6,536 nt of DNA from the IMG/VR virus record IMGVR_UViG_2734482539_000001, one strand, 5' to 3'. The DNA is from a virus. Its lineage: Duplodnaviria; Heunggongvirae; Uroviricota; Caudoviricetes. Made by a program: the position numbers and the translations under genes. Shown one piece after another: positions 1 through 6,502 of the stretch (its first letter is position 1; each line of letters starts with the position of its first letter). The notes under the pieces were generated by a model. The model was given only the letters and a program-made list of their open reading frames with translations, did no database searches and was not told the DNA's origin.

Positions 1-414
1 CAGAGTCTGGTCGGCGGAACGGTGGTCCGGCGTAAGGTTTACGCCCGTTTTCTGGATGCGGTGAACTTCGTCAACGGAAACAGTGACGCCGATCCGGAGC
101 AGGAGGTGATCAGCCGCTGGCGCATTGAGCAGTGCAGCGAACTGAGCGCGGTGAGTGCCTCTTTTGTACTGTCCACGCCGACGGAAACAGATGGCGCTGT
201 TTTTCCGGGACGTATCATGCTGGCCAACACCTGCACCTGGACCTATCGCGGCGATGAGTGCGGTTATCACGGTCCGGCGGTCGCGGATGAATATGACCAG
301 CCAACGTCCGATATCACGAAGGATAAATGCAGCAAATGCCTGAGTGGCTGTAAGTTTCGCAATAACGTCGGCAACTTTGGCGGCTTCCTTTCCATTAACA
401 AACTTTCGCAGTAA
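1..414 (+). CDS. L: Tail tip protein L, C-terminal fragment (5' end lies upstream of the window). Frame is open from nt 1; stop TAA at 412..414.
   Basis: Translation from nt 1 (QSLVGGTVVRRKVYARFLDAVNFVNG...CSKCLSGCKFRNNVGNFGGFLSINKLSQ) matches my recollection of the lambda gpL C-terminus almost residue for residue. Contains the C-terminal cysteine cluster (Cys codons at 232, 259, 328, 337, 349). Position immediately upstream of K is as in lambda. Confidence 0.9.
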   Translation, partial: QSLVGGTVVRRKVYARFLDAVNFVNGNSDADPEQEVISRWRIEQCSELSAVSASFVLSTPTETDGAVFPGRIMLANTCTWTYRGDECGYHGPAVADEYDQPTSDITKDKCSKCLSGCKFRNNVGNFGGFLSINKLSQ

Positions 415-419
415 ATCCC

Positions 420-1163
420 ATGACAGAGACAGAATCAGCGATTCTGGCGCACGCCCGGCGATGTGCTCCAGCGGAGTCGTGCGGCTTCGTGGTAAGAACG
501 CCGGAGGGGGAAAGATATTTCCCCTGCGTGAATATCTCCGGTGAGCCGGAGGCGTATTTCCGTATGTCGCCGGAAGACTGGCTGCAGGCAGAGATGCAGG
601 GTGAGATTGTGGCACTGGTCCACAGCCACCCCGGTGGTCTGCCCTGGCTGAGTGAGGCCGACCGGCGGCTGCAGGTGCAGAGTGATTTGCCGTGGTGGCT
701 GGTCTGCCGGGGGGCGATTCACAAGTTCCGCTGTGTGCCACATCTTACCGGGCGGCGCTTTGAGCACGGGGTGACGGACTGTTACACGCTGTTCCGGGAT
801 GCTTACCATCTGGCGGGGATTGAGATGCCGGATTTTCATCGTGAGGATGACTGGTGGCGTCACGGTCAGAATCTCTATCTGGATAATCTGGAGGCCACAG
901 GGCTGTATCAGGTGCCGTTGTCAGCGGCGCAGCCGGGCGATGTGCTGCTGTGCTGTTTTGGTTCATCGGTGCCGAATCATGCCGCCATTTACTGTGGTGA
1001 CGGCGAGCTGCTGCACCATATTCCTGAACAACTGAGCAAACGAGAGAGGTATACCGACAAATGGCAGCGACGCACACACTCCCTCTGGCGTCACCGGGCA
1101 TGGCGCGCATCTGCCTTTACGGGGATTTACAACGATTTGGCCGCCGCATCGACCTTCGTGTGA
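420..1163 (+). CDS. K: Tail tip assembly protein K, long form of 247 aa with an N-terminal JAB/MPN (JAMM) metalloprotease-like domain and a C-terminal NlpC/P60-like domain. The classical lambda annotation begins at the internal Met at 564 (199 aa).
   Basis: Translation MTETESAILAHARRCAP...VHSHPGGLPWLSEAD... contains an exact H-x-H-x7-S-x2-D JAMM signature (His codons at 621 and 627) and a D-C motif (Cys codon 780..782) typical of NlpC/P60. The last 199 aa match lambda gpK as I recall it. The ATG at 420 lies 5 nt after the L stop; the internal ATG at 564 is preceded by GGAGG (548..552). Confidence 0.88.
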   Translation: MTETESAILAHARRCAPAESCGFVVRTPEGERYFPCVNISGEPEAYFRMSPEDWLQAEMQGEIVALVHSHPGGLPWLSEADRRLQVQSDLPWWLVCRGAIHKFRCVPHLTGRRFEHGVTDCYTLFRDAYHLAGIEMPDFHREDDWWRHGQNLYLDNLEATGLYQVPLSAAQPGDVLLCCFGSSVPNHAAIYCGDGELLHHIPEQLSKRERYTDKWQRRTHSLWRHRAWRASAFTGIYNDLAAASTFV

Positions 1164-1537
1164 AAACGGGGGCTGAAGCCATTCGGGCGCTGGCCATGCA
1201 GATCCCGGCGTTTCGTCAGAAACTGAGCGACGGCTGGTATCAGGTACGGATTTCCGGGCGGGACGTCAGCACGTCCGGATTGACGGCGCAGTTACATGAG
1301 GTTCTGCCTGACGGCGCTGTGATTCATATTGTTCCCAGAGTCGCCGGGGCCAAGTCAGGGGGCGTATTCCAGATTGTCCTGGGAGCAGTCGCCATTGCCG
1401 GATCATTCTTTACCGCCGGAGCCACCCTTGCAGCATGGGGGGCAGCCATTGGGGCCGGTGGTATGACCGGCATCCTGTTTTCTCTCGGTGCCAGTATGGT
1501 ACTTGGTGGTGTGGCGCAGATGCTGGCACCGAAAGCC
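1061..1537 (+). CDS. I: Tail assembly protein I, 5' portion (codons 1-159), running into the assembly gap. Overlaps the 3' end of K by 103 nt in a different frame.
   Basis: Translation MAATHTLPLASPGMARICLYGDLQRFGRRIDLRVKTGAEAIRALA... matches the lambda gpI N-terminus. ATG at 1061 is preceded by GAGAGAGG (1042..1049). The reading frame is broken by the N-run starting at 1538. Confidence 0.8.
1225..1537 (+). repeat. Copy 1 of a 313-bp direct repeat of an internal segment of gene I; the partner is at 1788..2100, roughly 94% identical.
   Basis: By eye, 1225..1537 and 1788..2100 both begin gagcgacggctggtatcagg and end gatgctggcaccgaaagcc, with about 20 scattered, mostly synonymous substitutions. 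Both copies abut the N-run exactly. Confidence 0.85.
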
Positions 1538-1787
1538 NNNNNNNNNNNNNNNNNNNNNNNNNNNNNNNNNNNNNNNNNNNNNNNNNNNNNNNNNNNNNNN
1601 NNNNNNNNNNNNNNNNNNNNNNNNNNNNNNNNNNNNNNNNNNNNNNNNNNNNNNNNNNNNNNNNNNNNNNNNNNNNNNNNNNNNNNNNNNNNNNNNNNNN
1701 NNNNNNNNNNNNNNNNNNNNNNNNNNNNNNNNNNNNNNNNNNNNNNNNNNNNNNNNNNNNNNNNNNNNNNNNNNNNNNNNNNNNNNN
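1538..1787. other. Assembly or scaffold gap: 250 consecutive N.
   Basis: Uninterrupted run of n characters visible directly in the sequence. The six-frame track translates it as X. Confidence 0.98.
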
Positions 1788-2355: not shown

Positions 2356-5300
2356 ATGGGTAAAGGCAGCAGTAAGGGGCATACCCCGCGCGAAGCGAAG
2401 GACAACCTGAAGTCCACGCAGCTGCTGAGTGTGATCGATGCCATCAGCGAAGGGCCGGTTGAAGGTCCGGTGGATGGATTAAAAAGCGTGCTGCTGAACA
2501 GTACGCCGGTGCTGGACAGTGAGGGGAATACCAACATCTCCGGCGTCACGGTGGTGTTCCGGGCAGGTGAGCAGGAGCAGTCACCGCCGGAGGGATTTGA
2601 ATCCTCCGGCTCCGAGACGGTGCTGGGTACGGAAGTGAAATATGACACGCCGATCACCCGGACCATCACGTCGGCAAACATTGACCGACTGCGTTTTACC
2701 TTCGGTGTACAGGCACTGGTGGAAACCACCTCAAAGGGAGACAGGAATCCGTCTGAAGTTCGCCTGCTGGTTCAGATACAGCGTAACGGTGGCTGGGTGA
2801 CGGAAAAAGACATCACCATTAAGGGCAAAACCACCTCGCAGTATCTGGCCTCGGTGGTGGTGGATAACCTGCCGCCGCGCCCGTTTAATATCCGGATGCG
2901 CAGAATGACGCCGGACAGCACCACAGACCAGCTGCAGAACAAAACGCTCTGGTCGTCATACACCGAAATCATCGATGTGAAACAGTGCTACCCGAACACG
3001 GCACTGGTCGGCGTACAGGTGGATTCGGAGCAGTTCGGCAGCCAGCAGGTGAGCCGTAATTATCATCTTCGCGGGCGCATTCTGCAGGTGCCGTCGAACT
3101 ATAATCCGCAGACGCGGCAATACAGCGGTATCTGGGACGGAACGTTAAAACCGGCATACAGCAACAACATGGCCTGGTGTCTGTGGGATATGCTGACCCA
3201 TCCGCGCTATGGCATGGGGAAACGTCTTGGTGCGGCAGATGTGGATAAATGGGCGCTGTATGTCATCGGCCAGTACTGTGACCAGTCGGTGCCGGACGGC
3301 TTTGGCAGCACGGAGCCGCGCATCACCTGTAATGCCTGGCTGACCACACAGCGCAAGGCGTGGGATGTGCTCAGTGATTTCTGCTCGGCGATGCGCTGTA
3401 TGCCGGTATGGAACGGGCAGACGCTGACGTTCGTGCAGGACCGACAGTCGGATAAGGTGTGGGCCTATAACCGCAGTAATGTGGTGATGCCGGATGATGG
3501 CGCGCCGTTCCGCTACAGTTTCAGCGCCCTGAAAGACCGCCATAATGCCGTTGAGGTGAACTGGATTGACCCGGATAACGGCTGGGAGACGGCGACAGAG
3601 CTTGTGGAGGATACGCAGGCCATTGTCCGTTACGGTCGTAACGTCACGAAGATGGATGCCTTTGGCTGTACCAGCCGGGGGCAGGCACACCGCGCCGGGC
3701 TGTGGCTGATTAAAACGGAACTGCTGGAGACGCAGACCGTGGATTTCAGCGTGGGTGCTGAAGGGCTTCGTCATGTACCGGGCGATGTCATTGAAATCTG
3801 CGATGATGACTATGCCGGTATCCGCACCGGCGGGCGCGTGCTGGCGGTGAACAGCCAGACCCGGACGCTGACGCTCGACCGTGAAATCACGCTGCCATCC
3901 TCCGGCACCACGCTGATAAGCCTGGTTGACGGGCAGGGGAATCCGGTCAGCGTGGAGGTCCAGTCCGTCACCGACGGCGTGAAGGTAAAAGTGAGCCGTG
4001 TTCCTGACGGTGTTGCTGAATACAGCGTGTGGGGGCTGAAGCTGCCGACGCTGCACCAGCGATTGTTCCGCTGCGTGAGTATCCGTGAGAACGACGACGG
4101 CACGTATGCCATCACCGCCGTGCAGCATGTGCCGGAAAAAGAAGCCATCGTGGATAACGGGGCGCACTTTGACGGCGACCAGAGCGGCACGGTGAATGGT
4201 GTCACGCCGCCAGCGGTGCAGCACCTGACTGCCGAAGTCACCGCAGACAGCGGGGAATATCAGGTGCTGGCGCGCTGGGACACGCCGAAGGTGGTGAAGG
4301 GCGTGAGCTTCCTGCTCCGTCTGACCGTAACAGCGGATGACGGCAGTGAGCGGCTGGTCAGCACGGCCCGGACGACGGAAACCACTTACCGCTTCACACA
4401 ACTGGCGCTGGGGAACTACAGGCTGACAGTCCGGGCAGTAAATGCGTGGGGGCAGCAGGGCGATCCGGCGTCGGTATCGTTCCGGATTGCCGCACCGGCA
4501 GCGCTGTCGCGGATTGAGCTGACGCCGGGCTATTTTCAGATAACCGCCACGCCGCATCTTGCGGTTTATGATCCGACGGTACAGTTTGAGTTCTGGTTCT
4601 CGGAAAAGCGGATTGCGGATATCAGGCAGGTTGAAACCACAGCACGCTATCTTGGCACGGCGCTGTACTGGATAGCCGCCAGTATCAATATCAAACCGGG
4701 CCATGATTATTACTTTTATATCCGCAGTGTGAACACCGTTGGCAAATCGGCATTCGTGGAGGCTGTTGGTCAGCCGAGTGATGATGCATCCGGTTATCTG
4801 GATTTTTTCAAAGGCGAGATAGGGAAAACCCATCTGGCTCAGGAGCTGTGGACGCAGATTGATAACGGTCAGCTTGCGCCTGACCTGGCTGAAATCAGGA
4901 CGTCCATTACGGATGTCAGCAATGAAATCACGCAGACCGTCAATAAGAAACTGGAAGACCAGAGTGCGGCAATTCAGCAGATACAGAAGGTTCAGGTTGA
5001 TACAAATAATAACCTGAACAGCATGTGGGCTGTGAAGCTGCAGCAGATGCAGGACGGACGCCTTTATATCGCGGGTATTGGTGCCGGTATTGAGAACACC
5101 CCTGACGGCATGCAGAGTCAGGTGCTGCTGGCGGCGGACAGGATTGCGATGGTTAATCCTGCGAATGGCAACACAAAACCGATGTTTGTTGGTCAGGGCG
5201 ATCAGATATTCATGAACGACGTGTTCCTGAAACGCCTGACGGCCCCCACCATTACCAGCGGTGGAAATCCACCGGCATTTTCCCTGACACCGGACGGAAA

Positions 5301-5835
5301 GCTGACTGCTAAAAATGCGGATATCAGTGGCAGTGTGAATGCGAACGCCGGGACGCTCAACAACGTCACGATTAATGAGAACTGTCAGATTAAGGGGAAA
5401 CTGTCAGCCAATCAGATTGAAGGCGATATTGTCAAAACAGTGGGTAAGGCTTTCCCGCGGGACTCCCGGGCACCGGAGCGGTGGCCATCAGGGACCATTA
5501 CCGTCAGGATTTATGACGATCAGCCTTTTGACCGGCAAATTGTTATTCCAGCGGTGGCATTCTGCGGCGCTAAACATGAGCGGGAGAATAACGATATTTA
5601 TTCGTCATGCCGCCTGATAGTGAAGAAAAATGGTGCTGAAATTTATAACCGTACCGCGCTGGATAATACGCTGATTTACAGTGGTGTTATTGATATGCCA
5701 GCTGGTCACGGCCACATGACGCTGGAGTTTTCGGTGTCAGCATGGCTGGTAAATGACTGGTATCCCACAGCAAGTATCAGCGATTTGCTGGTTGTGGTGA
5801 TGAAGAAAGCCACCGCAGGCATCAGTATCAGCTGA
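2356..5835 (+). CDS. J: Host specificity protein J (central tail fibre / tail tip attachment protein), 1159 aa.
   Basis: Single 3480-nt ORF. The N-terminal roughly 800 aa ([34 protein letters not shown]...) closely match lambda gpJ as I recall it. GGAG at 2344..2347 sits 8 nt upstream of the ATG. Contains tandem fibronectin-III-like segments (about 4201..4800) and ends in a C-terminal block where receptor-binding function resides in lambda. Confidence 0.95.
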
Positions 5836-5902: not shown

Positions 5903-6502
5903 ATGCGTAAAGTTTGTGCAGCCATTTTGTCCGCAGCCATCTGTCTGGCCGTATCCGGTGCGCCTGCATGGGCGTCTGAGCAGCAGGCCACACTGAGCGC
6001 AGGGTATCTTCATGCCCGTACGAACGCTCCCGGCAGCGATGATCTGAACGGGATTAACGTGAAATACCGTTATGAGTTTACGGACACGCTGGGGCTGATT
6101 ACGTCATTCAGTTATGCCAACGCTGAAGATGAGCAAAAAACGCATTACAGCGATACCCGCTGGCATGAAGATTCCGTGCGTAACCGCTGGTTCAGCGTGA
6201 TGGCGGGGCCGTCTGTGCGCGTGAATGAATGGTTCAGCGCGTATGCGATGGCGGGTATGGCTTACAGCCGTGTTTCGACTTTCTCCGGAGATTATCTCCG
6301 CGTAACTGACAACAAGGGGAAAACGCACGATGTGCTGACCGGAAGTGATGACGGTCGCCACAGCAACACGTCTCTGGCGTGGGGAGCTGGCGTGCAGTTT
6401 AACCCGACCGAATCCGTGGCCGTTGACGTCGCTTATGAAGGCTCCGGCAGCGGTGACTGGCGTACCAACAGTTTCATCGTGGGTGTCGGTTATAAATTCT
6501 GA
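5903..6502 (+). CDS. lom: Lom outer-membrane protein (Ail/Lom/PagC/Rck family eight-strand beta-barrel), 199 aa, with a predicted signal peptide (cleavage after AWA, residues 1-24).
   Basis: Translation [64 protein letters not shown]...[10 protein letters not shown] closely matches lambda Lom as I recall it. C-terminal aromatic residue (F) is typical of beta-barrel OMPs. GAGG at 5894..5897 lies 5 nt upstream of the ATG. Position directly downstream of J is as in lambda. Confidence 0.9.

What the first reader, a model, noticed from the sequence alone, without database searches (positions are those of the whole stretch)
420..1163. K encodes a complete JAMM (JAB/MPN) motif only if translated from the upstream start; classical start is an internal Met with a strong SD
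The H-S-H-x7-S-x2-D signature (codons from 621) lies only 19 codons downstream of the classical lambda K start (ATG 564), so the fold and the upstream acidic ligand of a JAB/MPN domain would require translation from ATG 420. That start has no recognisable Shine-Dalgarno but sits 5 nt after the L stop, which suggests translational coupling. ATG 564 is preceded by GGAGG (548..552), so both a full-length JAB plus NlpC/P60 protein and a shorter NlpC/P60-only product are plausible. The fusion of a JAMM isopeptidase-like domain to an NlpC/P60 cysteine peptidase (Cys codon 780) in a tail assembly protein has been noted in comparative analyses, but its substrate in tail-tip assembly is, as far as I know, not resolved.
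Basis: partly seen in the sequence, partly recalled or inferred. Interest (0 to 1): 0.5.

Follow-up and report, generated by a model that had tools for sequence, protein, structure and literature searches.

The report
Lambda tail gene K, full-length form
This is the ordinary full-length (247-residue) tail-assembly gene K of a lambda-like prophage, a fusion of two protease domains; the shorter textbook version traces to one base missing from the 1982 lambda reference sequence.

Summary
Every coordinate in the finding checks out. The ORF 420..1163 encodes 247 aa. Only this long form scores above threshold as a JAB/MPN (JAMM) domain, fused to an NlpC/P60 cysteine peptidase. Residues 1-48 carry the catalytic Glu19 and three core secondary-structure elements of the MPN fold. 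They are conserved across homologues down to about 27% identity, whose genes also start next to the L stop.

The lambda reference (J02459/NC_001416) lacks one G, equivalent to window position 554. That breaks the frame between the true start and Met49. Four independently sequenced lambda-lineage genomes and all other lambdoid K genes examined have the G. None of 4,244 matching E. coli records is identical to the deleted version.

The internal ATG 564 does have the strongest Shine-Dalgarno match in the window. However, Met49 is Ile in 56 of 87 homologues, and Stx-type K keeps GGAGG with ATC at that codon. A conserved second product is therefore not supported.

The domain fusion and its proposed substrate (the ubiquitin-like domain of protein I) were published in 2003 and 2006, and pipelines already annotate 247 aa. 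Verdict: real, already known, low interest apart from the persisting reference error.

The parts
412..414 (+). Stop codon (TAA) of tail-tip gene L, 5 nt upstream of the K start
   Evidence: In divergent phages the K start lies within -4 to +10 nt of the L stop.
420..1163 (+). Gene K, full-length CDS: 247 aa, 28.3 kDa, JAB/MPN + NlpC/P60
   Evidence: About 96-98% nucleotide identity to lambda-group K. PHROG 30 'minor tail protein', E 7e-164. AF2 model with pLDDT 97.2.
420..563 (+). Codons 1-48, missing from the classical 199-aa annotation. They encode helix 3-15 and strands 21-27 and 30-36 of the MPN fold, and the conserved P17, E19, C21, G22, N38 and F47.
   Evidence: Variable sites by codon position are 10/2/27, the same coding-type pattern as the rest of the gene (34/26/97).
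474..476 (+). Glu19 codon (GAG), the catalytic Glu of the JAMM motif E-x(n)-H-S-H-x7-S-x2-D
   Evidence: E in 86/87 homologues. It aligns with the E of 'VEVCG' in P. furiosus JAMM1 (5ld9/5lda) and of 'NEACG' in 2kks.
429..713 (+). JAB/MPN (Prok-JAB, PF14464) domain, residues 4-98
   Evidence: Foldseek matches to PfJAMM1, CSN5, Rpn11 and AMSH.
548..552 (+). GGAGG inside the coding sequence (codons P43-E44-A45), 11 nt upstream of ATG 564
   Evidence: Retained in Stx-type K, where codon 49 is ATC.
554..554 (+). The G absent from the lambda reference J02459/NC_001416 (insertion after reference position 14266). Its absence frameshifts the reference ORF and created the 199-aa annotation.
564..566 (+). 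Met49 codon, the 'classical' lambda K start (reference 14276)
   Evidence: Ile in 56/87, Met in 12/87 homologues.
621..662 (+). H68-S69-H70-x7-S78-x2-D81, the zinc-binding part of the JAMM motif
   Evidence: H68, H70 and D81 are invariant; S69 and S78 are S in 83/87 and T in 4/87.
750..1091 (+). NlpC/P60 (C40) papain-like peptidase domain, residues 111-224. Cys121 is at 780-782. The conserved His187 and His199/200 follow.
   Evidence: Foldseek and HMM matches to MepS/Spr, CwlO, LytE and Acd33800.
1061..1537 (+). 5' part of gene I (ubiquitin-like domain ending in G100-G101), overlapping the 3' end of K. It is the predicted substrate of the K JAB domain. The gene is interrupted by the N-run 1538-1787.
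   Evidence: Prediction from Iyer et al. 2006, PMC1779556.

Best explanation
Window 420..1163 is the normal, full-length tail-tip assembly gene K of a lambda-group prophage. It makes one 247-residue (28 kDa) protein with two peptidase domains. The N-terminal domain is a JAB/MPN+ (JAMM) zinc metallopeptidase, with catalytic Glu19 and zinc site H68/H70/D81. The C-terminal domain is an NlpC/P60 papain-like cysteine peptidase with Cys121 and His187/His199.

Translation starts at ATG 420. There is no SD there. Ribosomes finishing L, 5 nt upstream, most likely re-initiate (inferred).

The textbook 199-aa K starting at Met49 is an annotation artefact. The 1982 reference sequence lacks one G, equivalent to window 554, which puts the first 45 codons out of frame.

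Function is inferred, not shown here. K acts as a non-virion assembly protease of the tail tip. The JAB domain most likely clips the ubiquitin-like N-terminal domain off protein I at its C-terminal Gly-Gly. The target of the NlpC/P60 domain is unknown.
For: Domain calls:
- Prok-JAB at 52.6 bits and NLPC_P60 at 49.2 bits are obtained together only for the long form; the short form is below the JAB cut-off.
- The AF2 model has pLDDT 97.2 and pTM 0.91. Residues 1-48 form helix 3-15 and strands 21-27 and 30-36.
- Foldseek finds PfJAMM1 (5ld9; 5lda with SAMP2; rmsd about 2.5 A, TM about 0.67 to the target), CSN5, Rpn11 and AMSH for the N-domain. It finds MepS and Acd33800 for the C-domain.
- The profile aligns E19 with the Glu of PfJAMM1.

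Conservation:
- In 87 homologues at 32-58% identity, E19 is present in 86/87, and G22, N38, H68, H70 and D81 in 87/87. C121, H187 and H199 are each present in 86/87.
- Their N-termini mostly lie within 0-7 residues of Met1.
- In 1,721 of 1,760 phage records the tblastn match covers at least 80% of the 247 aa, starting at residue 1-8 in the sampled rows.
- Codons 1-48 show third-position-biased variation (10/2/27).
- K starts abut the L stop in lambda-, HK97-, T1-like and Mannheimia phages.

Reference error:
- NC_001416 has GAGGC-TATTTCC where this window and every other aligned lambdoid K examined have GAGGCGTATTTCC.
- Within K this is the only difference between the reference and LC730321, PV340536, OM418626 and EU078592.
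- Genome-wide, LC730321 differs from the reference by +G at 14266 among 15 small changes.
- Only 4 of 131 phage records share the deletion. Two are the reference itself (J02459, NC_001416). One is an UNVERIFIED engineered sequence and one looks reference-guided.
- None of 4,244 matching E. coli records is 100% identical to the deleted 121-mer.

Annotation and literature:
- Feiss et al. [quoted passage not shown]
- PGAP and recent records annotate 247 aa.
- Iyer et al. 2006 predicted that the TAPK JAB domain processes the Ubl of TAPI.
- gpK is absent from virions by mass spectrometry.
- The Ubl of gpI ends at G100-G101. The virion structures resolve gpI only from residue 101 or 135 onward.
Against: - No direct evidence of the translation start was available: no N-terminal proteomics or ribosome profiling could be accessed.
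- ATG 564 has the best SD match in the window and is kept in 70/72 distinct lambda-clade alleles. Some internal initiation in this clade cannot be excluded.
- Two records, OR974322 and OR474059, carry the reference deletion. I argue they derive from the reference but cannot prove it.
- Expert-annotated lambda hybrids (OM418626) still list K as 199 aa with an RBS, although the sequence has the G.
- Enzymatic activity and substrate are entirely inferred. The missing N-terminus of gpI in cryo-EM maps could be disorder rather than cleavage.
Confidence: 0.9

Rival explanations
1. Two products: besides the 247-aa protein, ribosomes initiate internally at ATG 564, using GGAGG 548-552. This would give a 199-aa NlpC/P60-only protein with its own role, as with other lambda nested genes such as C/Nu3 or S105/S107.
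For: ATG 564 has the strongest anti-SD pairing of the 121 ATGs in the window, -9.5 kcal/mol. ATG is kept in 70/72 and GGAGG in 71/72 distinct lambda-clade K alleles. Expert annotators marked this RBS in lambda hybrids. Iyer et al. 2006 describe NlpC/P60-only TAPK versions in some phages.
Against: The equivalent residue is Ile in 56/87, Leu or Val in 15/87 and Met in only 12/87 homologues. In the 85%-identical Stx-type K, GGAGG is retained but the codon is ATC, so the purine run persists without a start. GGAGG is dictated by the coding sequence Pro-Glu-Ala, and conservation within a 96-99% identical clade says little. The 11-nt spacing is longer than optimal. A 199-aa product would carry a non-foldable half of the MPN domain (residues 49-110).
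Confidence: 0.1
2. The reference frameshift is real in the strain Sanger sequenced. Lab lambda would then live with a split K (a ~76-codon upstream ORF plus the 199-aa protein), so the JAB domain would be dispensable or re-assembled from fragments.
For: Two further GenBank records (OR974322, OR474059) have the same 1-nt deletion. OR974322 carries the Sam7 change, so it is not a plain copy of the reference.
Against: OR474059 is flagged UNVERIFIED and equals the reference plus textbook edits: an insert, the nin5 deletion, cI857, ind1 and Sam7. OR974322 differs from the reference only beyond position 45,037 and lacks cI857/ind1, the pattern of a reference-guided consensus. Independently assembled lambda, lambda hybrids and DE3 all have the G. 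None of 4,244 matching E. coli records matches the deleted version at 100%. The JAB catalytic residues are conserved at or near invariance across the family, which argues against dispensability. From memory, unverified: vendor documentation for lambda cI857 ind1 Sam7 DNA lists the same two indels (138 delG, 14266 +G) seen in LC730321.
Confidence: 0.04
3. The upstream 48 codons are a non-functional remnant, and only the NlpC/P60 part matters. It would act as a virion-associated peptidoglycan hydrolase for cell-wall penetration.
For: The NlpC/P60 domain resembles peptidoglycan endopeptidases such as MepS, CwlO and LytE. Ge and Wang 2024 note that the lambda peptidoglycan-cleaving enzyme is unidentified.
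Against: The first 48 residues are under protein-level selection and contain residues conserved at 90% or more. gpK was not detected in virions by mass spectrometry and is not seen in any tail-tip structure, so it cannot act during infection.
Confidence: 0.03

Closest known systems
Bacteriophage lambda tail tip assembly protein K (gpK; TAPK of Iyer, Burroughs and Aravind 2006; PHROG 30; PGAP 'C40 family peptidase')
   Same: Same gene order, L-K-I-J-lom. About 96-98% nucleotide identity to lambda-group K. Same 247-aa ORF as in re-sequenced lambda, phage 434 and thousands of E. coli prophages.
   Different: It differs from the RefSeq/J02459 entry only in length: 247 versus 199 aa, because the reference lacks one G, plus a few substitutions (for example E3 for Q3 and R26 for S26).
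Prokaryotic JAMM/MPN+ peptidases that process ubiquitin-like proteins (Pyrococcus furiosus JAMM1 with SAMP2, PDB 5ld9/5lda; haloarchaeal desampylase, NF041370)
   Same: Same fold and a complete E...HSH-x7-S-x2-D motif. The gene lies next to one for a beta-grasp Ubl protein ending in Gly-Gly.
   Different: Fused to an NlpC/P60 domain. No E1-like adenylating enzyme lies in the examined L-K-I-J-lom region, so no conjugation cycle is evident there. The Ubl is the N-terminal domain of a structural protein, so the reaction would be a one-off maturation cleavage. The NCBIfam desampylase score (29 bits) is far below its 130-bit cut-off, so K is not an equivalog.
NlpC/P60 (C40) peptidoglycan endopeptidases (E. 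coli MepS/Spr, B. subtilis CwlO and LytE)
   Same: Papain-like fold with conserved Cys-His-His.
   Different: Cytoplasmic phage assembly factor with no signal peptide context. It is not found in virions, so a peptidoglycan substrate is unlikely. Sequence similarity is confined to the core.

Membership tests
JAB/MPN+ (JAMM) metallopeptidase, Pfam Prok-JAB PF14464 | Profile match above the curated gathering score | tested here: met
   52.6 bits against a cut-off of 25 for the 247-aa form. The 199-aa form scores 22.9 bits, below the cut-off.
JAB/MPN+ (JAMM) metallopeptidase, Pfam Prok-JAB PF14464 | Complete motif E-x(n)-H-S/T-H-x7-S-x2-D | tested here: met
   E19, H68, S69, H70, S78 and D81 are present. 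They are conserved in 86/87 (E19), 87/87 (H68, H70, D81) and 83/87 (S69, S78; the other 4 have T). E19 aligns with the Glu of PfJAMM1.
JAB/MPN+ (JAMM) metallopeptidase, Pfam Prok-JAB PF14464 | MPN alpha/beta fold | tested here: met
   AF2 pLDDT 97. Foldseek matches to 5ld9/5lda, CSN5, Rpn11 and AMSH at E 3e-5 to 5e-4. This is a predicted model, not a solved structure.
JAB/MPN+ (JAMM) metallopeptidase, Pfam Prok-JAB PF14464 | Zinc binding and (iso)peptidase activity on a Ubl substrate | not testable with these tools
   Needs purified 247-aa K and gpI.
NlpC/P60 (MEROPS C40) cysteine peptidase, PF00877 | Profile match above the gathering score | tested here: met
   49.2 bits against a cut-off of 23, residues 111-224 covering the full profile 1-105.
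NlpC/P60 (MEROPS C40) cysteine peptidase, PF00877 | Catalytic Cys and His plus a third polar residue | tested here: met
   C121, H187 and H199 are each present in 86/87 homologues; H200 in 82/87. Assigning them as the triad rests on conservation and family knowledge.
NlpC/P60 (MEROPS C40) cysteine peptidase, PF00877 | Hydrolytic activity and substrate | not testable with these tools
   No biochemical data were found in the searched library.
Lambda tail tip assembly protein K | Position between L and I/J in the tail module, and high identity to lambda K | tested here: met
   L (to 414), K, I, J (2356-5835), lom (5903-6502). About 96-98% nucleotide identity to lambda-group records. PHROG 30, E 7e-164.
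Lambda tail tip assembly protein K | Required for tail assembly but absent from the virion | not testable with these tools
   From the literature only: PMC10721106, PMC12617516 and PMC3224144.
Nested-gene or dual-start phage genes (internal in-frame initiation) | Internal start codon and SD conserved across homologues | tested here: not met
   Met49 in 12/87, Ile in 56/87. In four of five divergent phages the codon is ATA, ATA, CTG or ATC.
Nested-gene or dual-start phage genes (internal in-frame initiation) | Two protein products detected | not testable with these tools
   No proteomic or ribosome-profiling data were accessible (searches failed).

The most novel reading that the evidence does not exclude
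K is the missing protease for both unexplained cleavages in lambda tail maturation. The JAB domain would remove the ubiquitin-like domain of gpI at G100-G101, close to residue 101 where the structure description in Ge and Wang 2024 begins. The NlpC/P60 domain would cut the tape-measure protein gpH to gpH*/gpHC in its glycine-rich region, an event whose catalyst is stated to be unknown (PMC12617516). A weaker variant is that, in the lambda clade only, internal initiation at Met49 supplies extra NlpC/P60-only protein.
Probability: 0.12. Interest if true: 0.65.

Novelty: already known. Interest (0 to 1): 0.27.

Why it matters
The biology is not new. It was described as a JAMM protein in 2003 and as a JAB + NlpC/P60 fusion with a predicted Ubl substrate in 2006. 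The practical point is an annotation error.

- The most-used lambda records (J02459/NC_001416, protein NP_040598) still give a K protein that lacks 48 residues, including the catalytic Glu and part of the MPN fold. The cause is one missing base.
- From memory, the UniProt entry derived from the reference is also 199 aa.
- Any clone, interaction screen, structure prediction or enzyme assay built on the 199-aa ORF would test a crippled protein.
- For example, the lambda two-hybrid map found no tail partners for K. Whether that screen used the 199-aa ORF is my inference.
- Using the 247-aa form makes the 2006 K-cleaves-I hypothesis directly testable.

Tried and rejected
- I tried to read the lambda ribosome-profiling paper (Liu et al. 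2013) and the Casjens and Hendrix 2015 review for start-site data. Neither is held.
- Searches for '14266', and for gpK with NlpC, JAMM or ubiquitin-like terms, found no paper discussing the K frameshift or K biochemistry.
- The MutaMouse lambda gt10 paper does not list the K difference.
- The first viral-contig scan returned only 98-99% identical loci, which are useless for deep conservation. I replaced it with tblastn over phages and the 50%-cluster representative search.
- The virion mass-spectrometry table gives one gpI peptide without its sequence, so it cannot show whether the Ubl is removed.
- Model coordinates are not exposed, so I could not measure the Glu19 to His68/His70 distance. 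I relied on motif alignment to solved JAMMs.
- I considered folding a natural K-I fusion to look for Ubl docking. I rejected it because no contact or PAE output is available.
- The antisense ORF 435..863 was treated as a by-product of GC-rich coding sequence and not pursued.

Full report
**What is in the window.** The window is the tail-tip module of a lambda-group prophage. It holds the 3' end of L (to 414), K (420..1163), I (from 1061 or 1100, interrupted by an N-run), J (2356..5835) and lom (5903..6502). The 300-1300 stretch is about 96-98% identical to lambda-group phages, including phage 434, HK630 and DE3.

**Checking the observation.**
- The L stop TAA is at 412-414, and ATG 420 lies 5 nt downstream.
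- GGAGG is at 548-552 and ATG 564 is codon 49.
- H68-S69-H70 begins at 621, with S78 and D81 following.
- The Cys121 codon is at 780 and the stop at 1161-1163.

Pfam places Prok-JAB on residues 4-98 (52.6 bits, cut-off 25) and NLPC_P60 on residues 111-224 (49.2 bits, cut-off 23). The 199-aa form falls below the JAB cut-off at 22.9 bits, matching only profile positions 63-103. The first 48 residues alone hit profile positions 3-41 at E 3.5e-5.

The SD remark also holds. Among the 121 ATGs of the window, ATG 564 has the best predicted pairing with the 16S rRNA 3' end (-9.5 kcal/mol). ATG 420 has the worst (+0.7).

**Are the first 48 codons really coding?** Yes, on four independent grounds.

1. 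*Family conservation.* In an alignment of 87 full-length homologues at 32-58% identity, G22 and N38 are invariant. P17, E19 (86/87), C21 and F47 are at least 90% conserved. All lie upstream of the classical start. H68, H70 and D81 are invariant, and C121, H187 and H199 are each present in 86/87.
2. *Matching N-termini.* The homologues' own N-termini mostly fall within 0-7 residues of Met1. A tblastn search shows 1,721 of 1,760 phage records covering at least 80% of the 247 aa. The alignments in the sampled rows begin at residue 1-8, down to about 27% identity, in T1-like, HK97-like, Klebsiella, Ralstonia and Burkholderia phages.
3. *Codon-position pattern.* Among 72 distinct close alleles, variable sites in codons 1-48 fall 10/2/27 by codon position. 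This is the same third-position bias as the rest of the gene (34/26/97).
4. *Structure.* AlphaFold2 with this alignment gives pLDDT 97.2 and pTM 0.91. Residues 1-48 form helix 3-15 and strands 21-27 and 30-36.
   - Foldseek matches the N-domain to P. furiosus JAMM1 (5ld9, and 5lda in complex with the Ubl SAMP2), CSN5, Rpn11 and AMSH. It matches the C-domain to MepS and other NlpC/P60 enzymes.
   - The family profile aligns E19 ('prEaCG') with the Glu of 'VEVCG' in PfJAMM1 and of 'NEACG' in 2kks.

In AfJAMM the His, His and Asp bind zinc, whereas the Glu hydrogen-bonds the catalytic water rather than being a ligand (abstract of PMC300881).

**Why a 'classical' 199-aa K exists.** Aligning 99 fetched loci, the lambda reference NC_001416 was the only close relative aligned at that stage with a gap. 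It reads GAGGC-TATTTCC where the window (549-561) and the others read GAGGCGTATTTCC.

In the reference, ATG 14133 opens MTQTESAILAHARRCAPAESCGFVVSTPEGERYFPCVNISGEPEA and then runs out of frame. The K frame has a stop eight codons upstream of ATG 14276. The 199-aa annotation is therefore simply the first ATG after that stop.

Four lambda-lineage records were compared with the reference: LC730321 (Lambda_AGU), PV340536 (Lambda), OM418626 (lambda imm434) and EU078592 (DE3). Within K they differ from it only by this one G, and all encode 247 aa. Genome-wide, LC730321 differs from the reference by 138 delG, 14266 +G, 20832 +C and 12 substituted positions.

Only 4 of 131 phage records match the reference 121-mer at 100%: J02459, NC_001416, OR474059 and OR974322.
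- OR474059 is flagged UNVERIFIED and equals the reference plus textbook edits.
- OR974322 differs from the reference only beyond 45,037 and lacks cI857/ind1, as a reference-guided consensus would.

Among 5,426 complete E. coli genomes, 4,244 records match, but the best identity is 99.2% over 122 nt in the record. None has the deletion, and PGAP labels the region 'C40 family peptidase'.

[quoted passage not shown] Their lambda imm434 record still annotates K at 14276..14875 with an RBS. Their phage 434 record annotates 14132..14875 and adds a note about the start. From memory only, vendor documentation for lambda DNA lists a G deletion at 138 and a G insertion at 14266, the same two indels. I could not verify this here.

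**Is there also a short product?** The comparative evidence does not support one.
- Residue 49 is Ile in 56/87, Met in 12/87, Leu in 10/87 and Val in 5/87 homologues.
- In five divergent phages the codon is ATA, ATA, ATG, CTG and ATC.
- The 85%-identical Stx-type K keeps GGAGG (-9.5 kcal/mol) but has ATC at codon 49. The purine run therefore persists without a start and is explained by the coding sequence Pro-Glu-Ala.
- The spacer to ATG 564 is 11 nt.
- A product starting at Met49 would carry an incomplete MPN domain.

Conservation of ATG and GGAGG in 70-71 of 72 lambda-clade alleles is uninformative at 96-99% identity. Low-level internal initiation in this clade cannot be excluded without experiments. 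I give it about 10%.

**How translation of the long form starts.** There is no SD before ATG 420. In every phage examined the K start abuts the L stop:
- 5 nt after it in this window;
- 3 nt in the Mannheimia phage;
- 1 nt in HK633;
- an ATGA overlap in the T1-like Sazh;
- 10 nt in the Stx-type K;
- in mEp021, an unannotated ATG 2 nt after the stop.

Termination-reinitiation coupling to L is therefore the most likely mechanism. This is inferred, not shown.

**What K does.** The following comes from the literature.
- Lambda K was listed as a JAMM protein of unknown function in 2003 (PMC300881).
- Iyer, Burroughs and Aravind (2006) described TAPK as JAB + NlpC/P60, encoded next to TAPI, whose N-terminal domain is a ThiS/MoaD-like ubiquitin fold ending in a conserved Gly. 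They proposed that the JAB domain cleaves at that Gly (PMC1779556).
- gpK was not found in virions by mass spectrometry and is not seen in tail-tip structures.
- Genetic work places K after J, I and L in the assembly order.

From the sequence here, the Ubl of I ends at G100-G101, numbering from ATG 1061. The structure papers describe gpI as resolved from residue 101 (Ge and Wang 2024) or model residues 135-223 (Xiao et al. 2023) and 134-222 (Ur-lambda); the N-terminal domain is unseen. That coincidence fits cleavage at the Gly-Gly but equally fits disorder. The mass-spectrometry table has a single, unidentified gpI peptide.

The catalyst for gpH to gpH* processing is stated to be unknown, which leaves a speculative second job for K. 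I found no experimental biochemistry on K.

**Comparison with known families.** The protein meets the tested defining features of the JAMM/MPN+ and NlpC/P60 families: profile score, motif or catalytic residues, and predicted fold. Enzymatic activity could not be tested here. It is an orthologue of lambda gpK. It is not an equivalog of archaeal desampylase (29 bits against a cut-off of 130). No E1-like enzyme lies in the examined L-K-I-J-lom region, so the expected reaction is a one-off maturation cleavage rather than a conjugation cycle.

**Verdict.** This is already how most databases annotate the gene, and the domain fusion and its proposed substrate are published. The useful by-product is an explicit account of why the reference lambda K is short: one base missing at 14266. 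The reference annotation still carries that truncated protein, and this matters for anyone cloning or modelling gpK. Novelty: already known. Interest: low to moderate.

Noticed in passing
window 554 (= lambda reference between 14266 and 14267): The lambda reference J02459/NC_001416 lacks this G. All independently sequenced lambda-lineage genomes examined, and all other lambdoid K genes examined, have it. RefSeq NP_040598 (199 aa) is therefore N-terminally truncated by 48 residues.
   Followed up: yes
window 1538-1787, with flanks 1225-1537 and 1788-2100: A 250-base N-run sits inside gene I. The sequences on either side are two 94%-identical copies (19 mismatches in 313 nt) of the same part of I. 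The window probably joins two contigs or prophage alleles here, so gene I is not contiguous.
   Followed up: partly
window 1061, 1100, 1160 (and the position matching the PGAP start in NC_049952, locus 1127): The start of gene I is annotated at three different places in different records. The later starts would cut off the first strand ('MARICLYGDL') of the ubiquitin-like domain, a start-site problem parallel to that of K. K and I overlap by 64-103 nt if I starts at 1100 or 1061.
   Followed up: partly
L090 (OM418626 lambda imm434) versus L001 (OL657226 phage 434): The same annotation team lists K as 199 aa with an RBS in the lambda hybrids, although the sequence has the extra G. In phage 434 they list it as 247 aa with a note on the start. 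The start is not settled even in expert records.
   Followed up: partly
window 1358-1363 (gene I codons G100-G101): The Gly-Gly at the end of the ubiquitin-like domain of I falls next to residue 101, where Ge and Wang 2024 describe gpI as resolved in the closed-state tail tip. This is consistent with, but does not prove, removal of the Ubl during assembly.
   Followed up: partly
L096 (LC730321 Lambda_AGU), reference positions 138 and 20832: Besides +G at 14266, this lambda genome has a G deletion at 138 and a +C at 20832, the site of the stf frameshift of laboratory lambda. It may therefore have an intact side tail fibre gene.
   Followed up: no
proteins P0021, P0030, P0040 (L-K) and P0015, P0031, P0084 (K-I): Public databases contain ORFs that fuse L to K or K to I. 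Some may be real fusions, as Iyer et al. 2006 noted; others are probably frameshift or assembly artefacts in this tightly packed region.
   Followed up: no
clusters P0057, P0060, P0064, P0066 (199 aa): Several large clusters of 199-aa K proteins exist in metagenome-derived sources. This would be expected if gene callers preferred the internal ATG because of its strong SD, which would propagate the short form.
   Followed up: no
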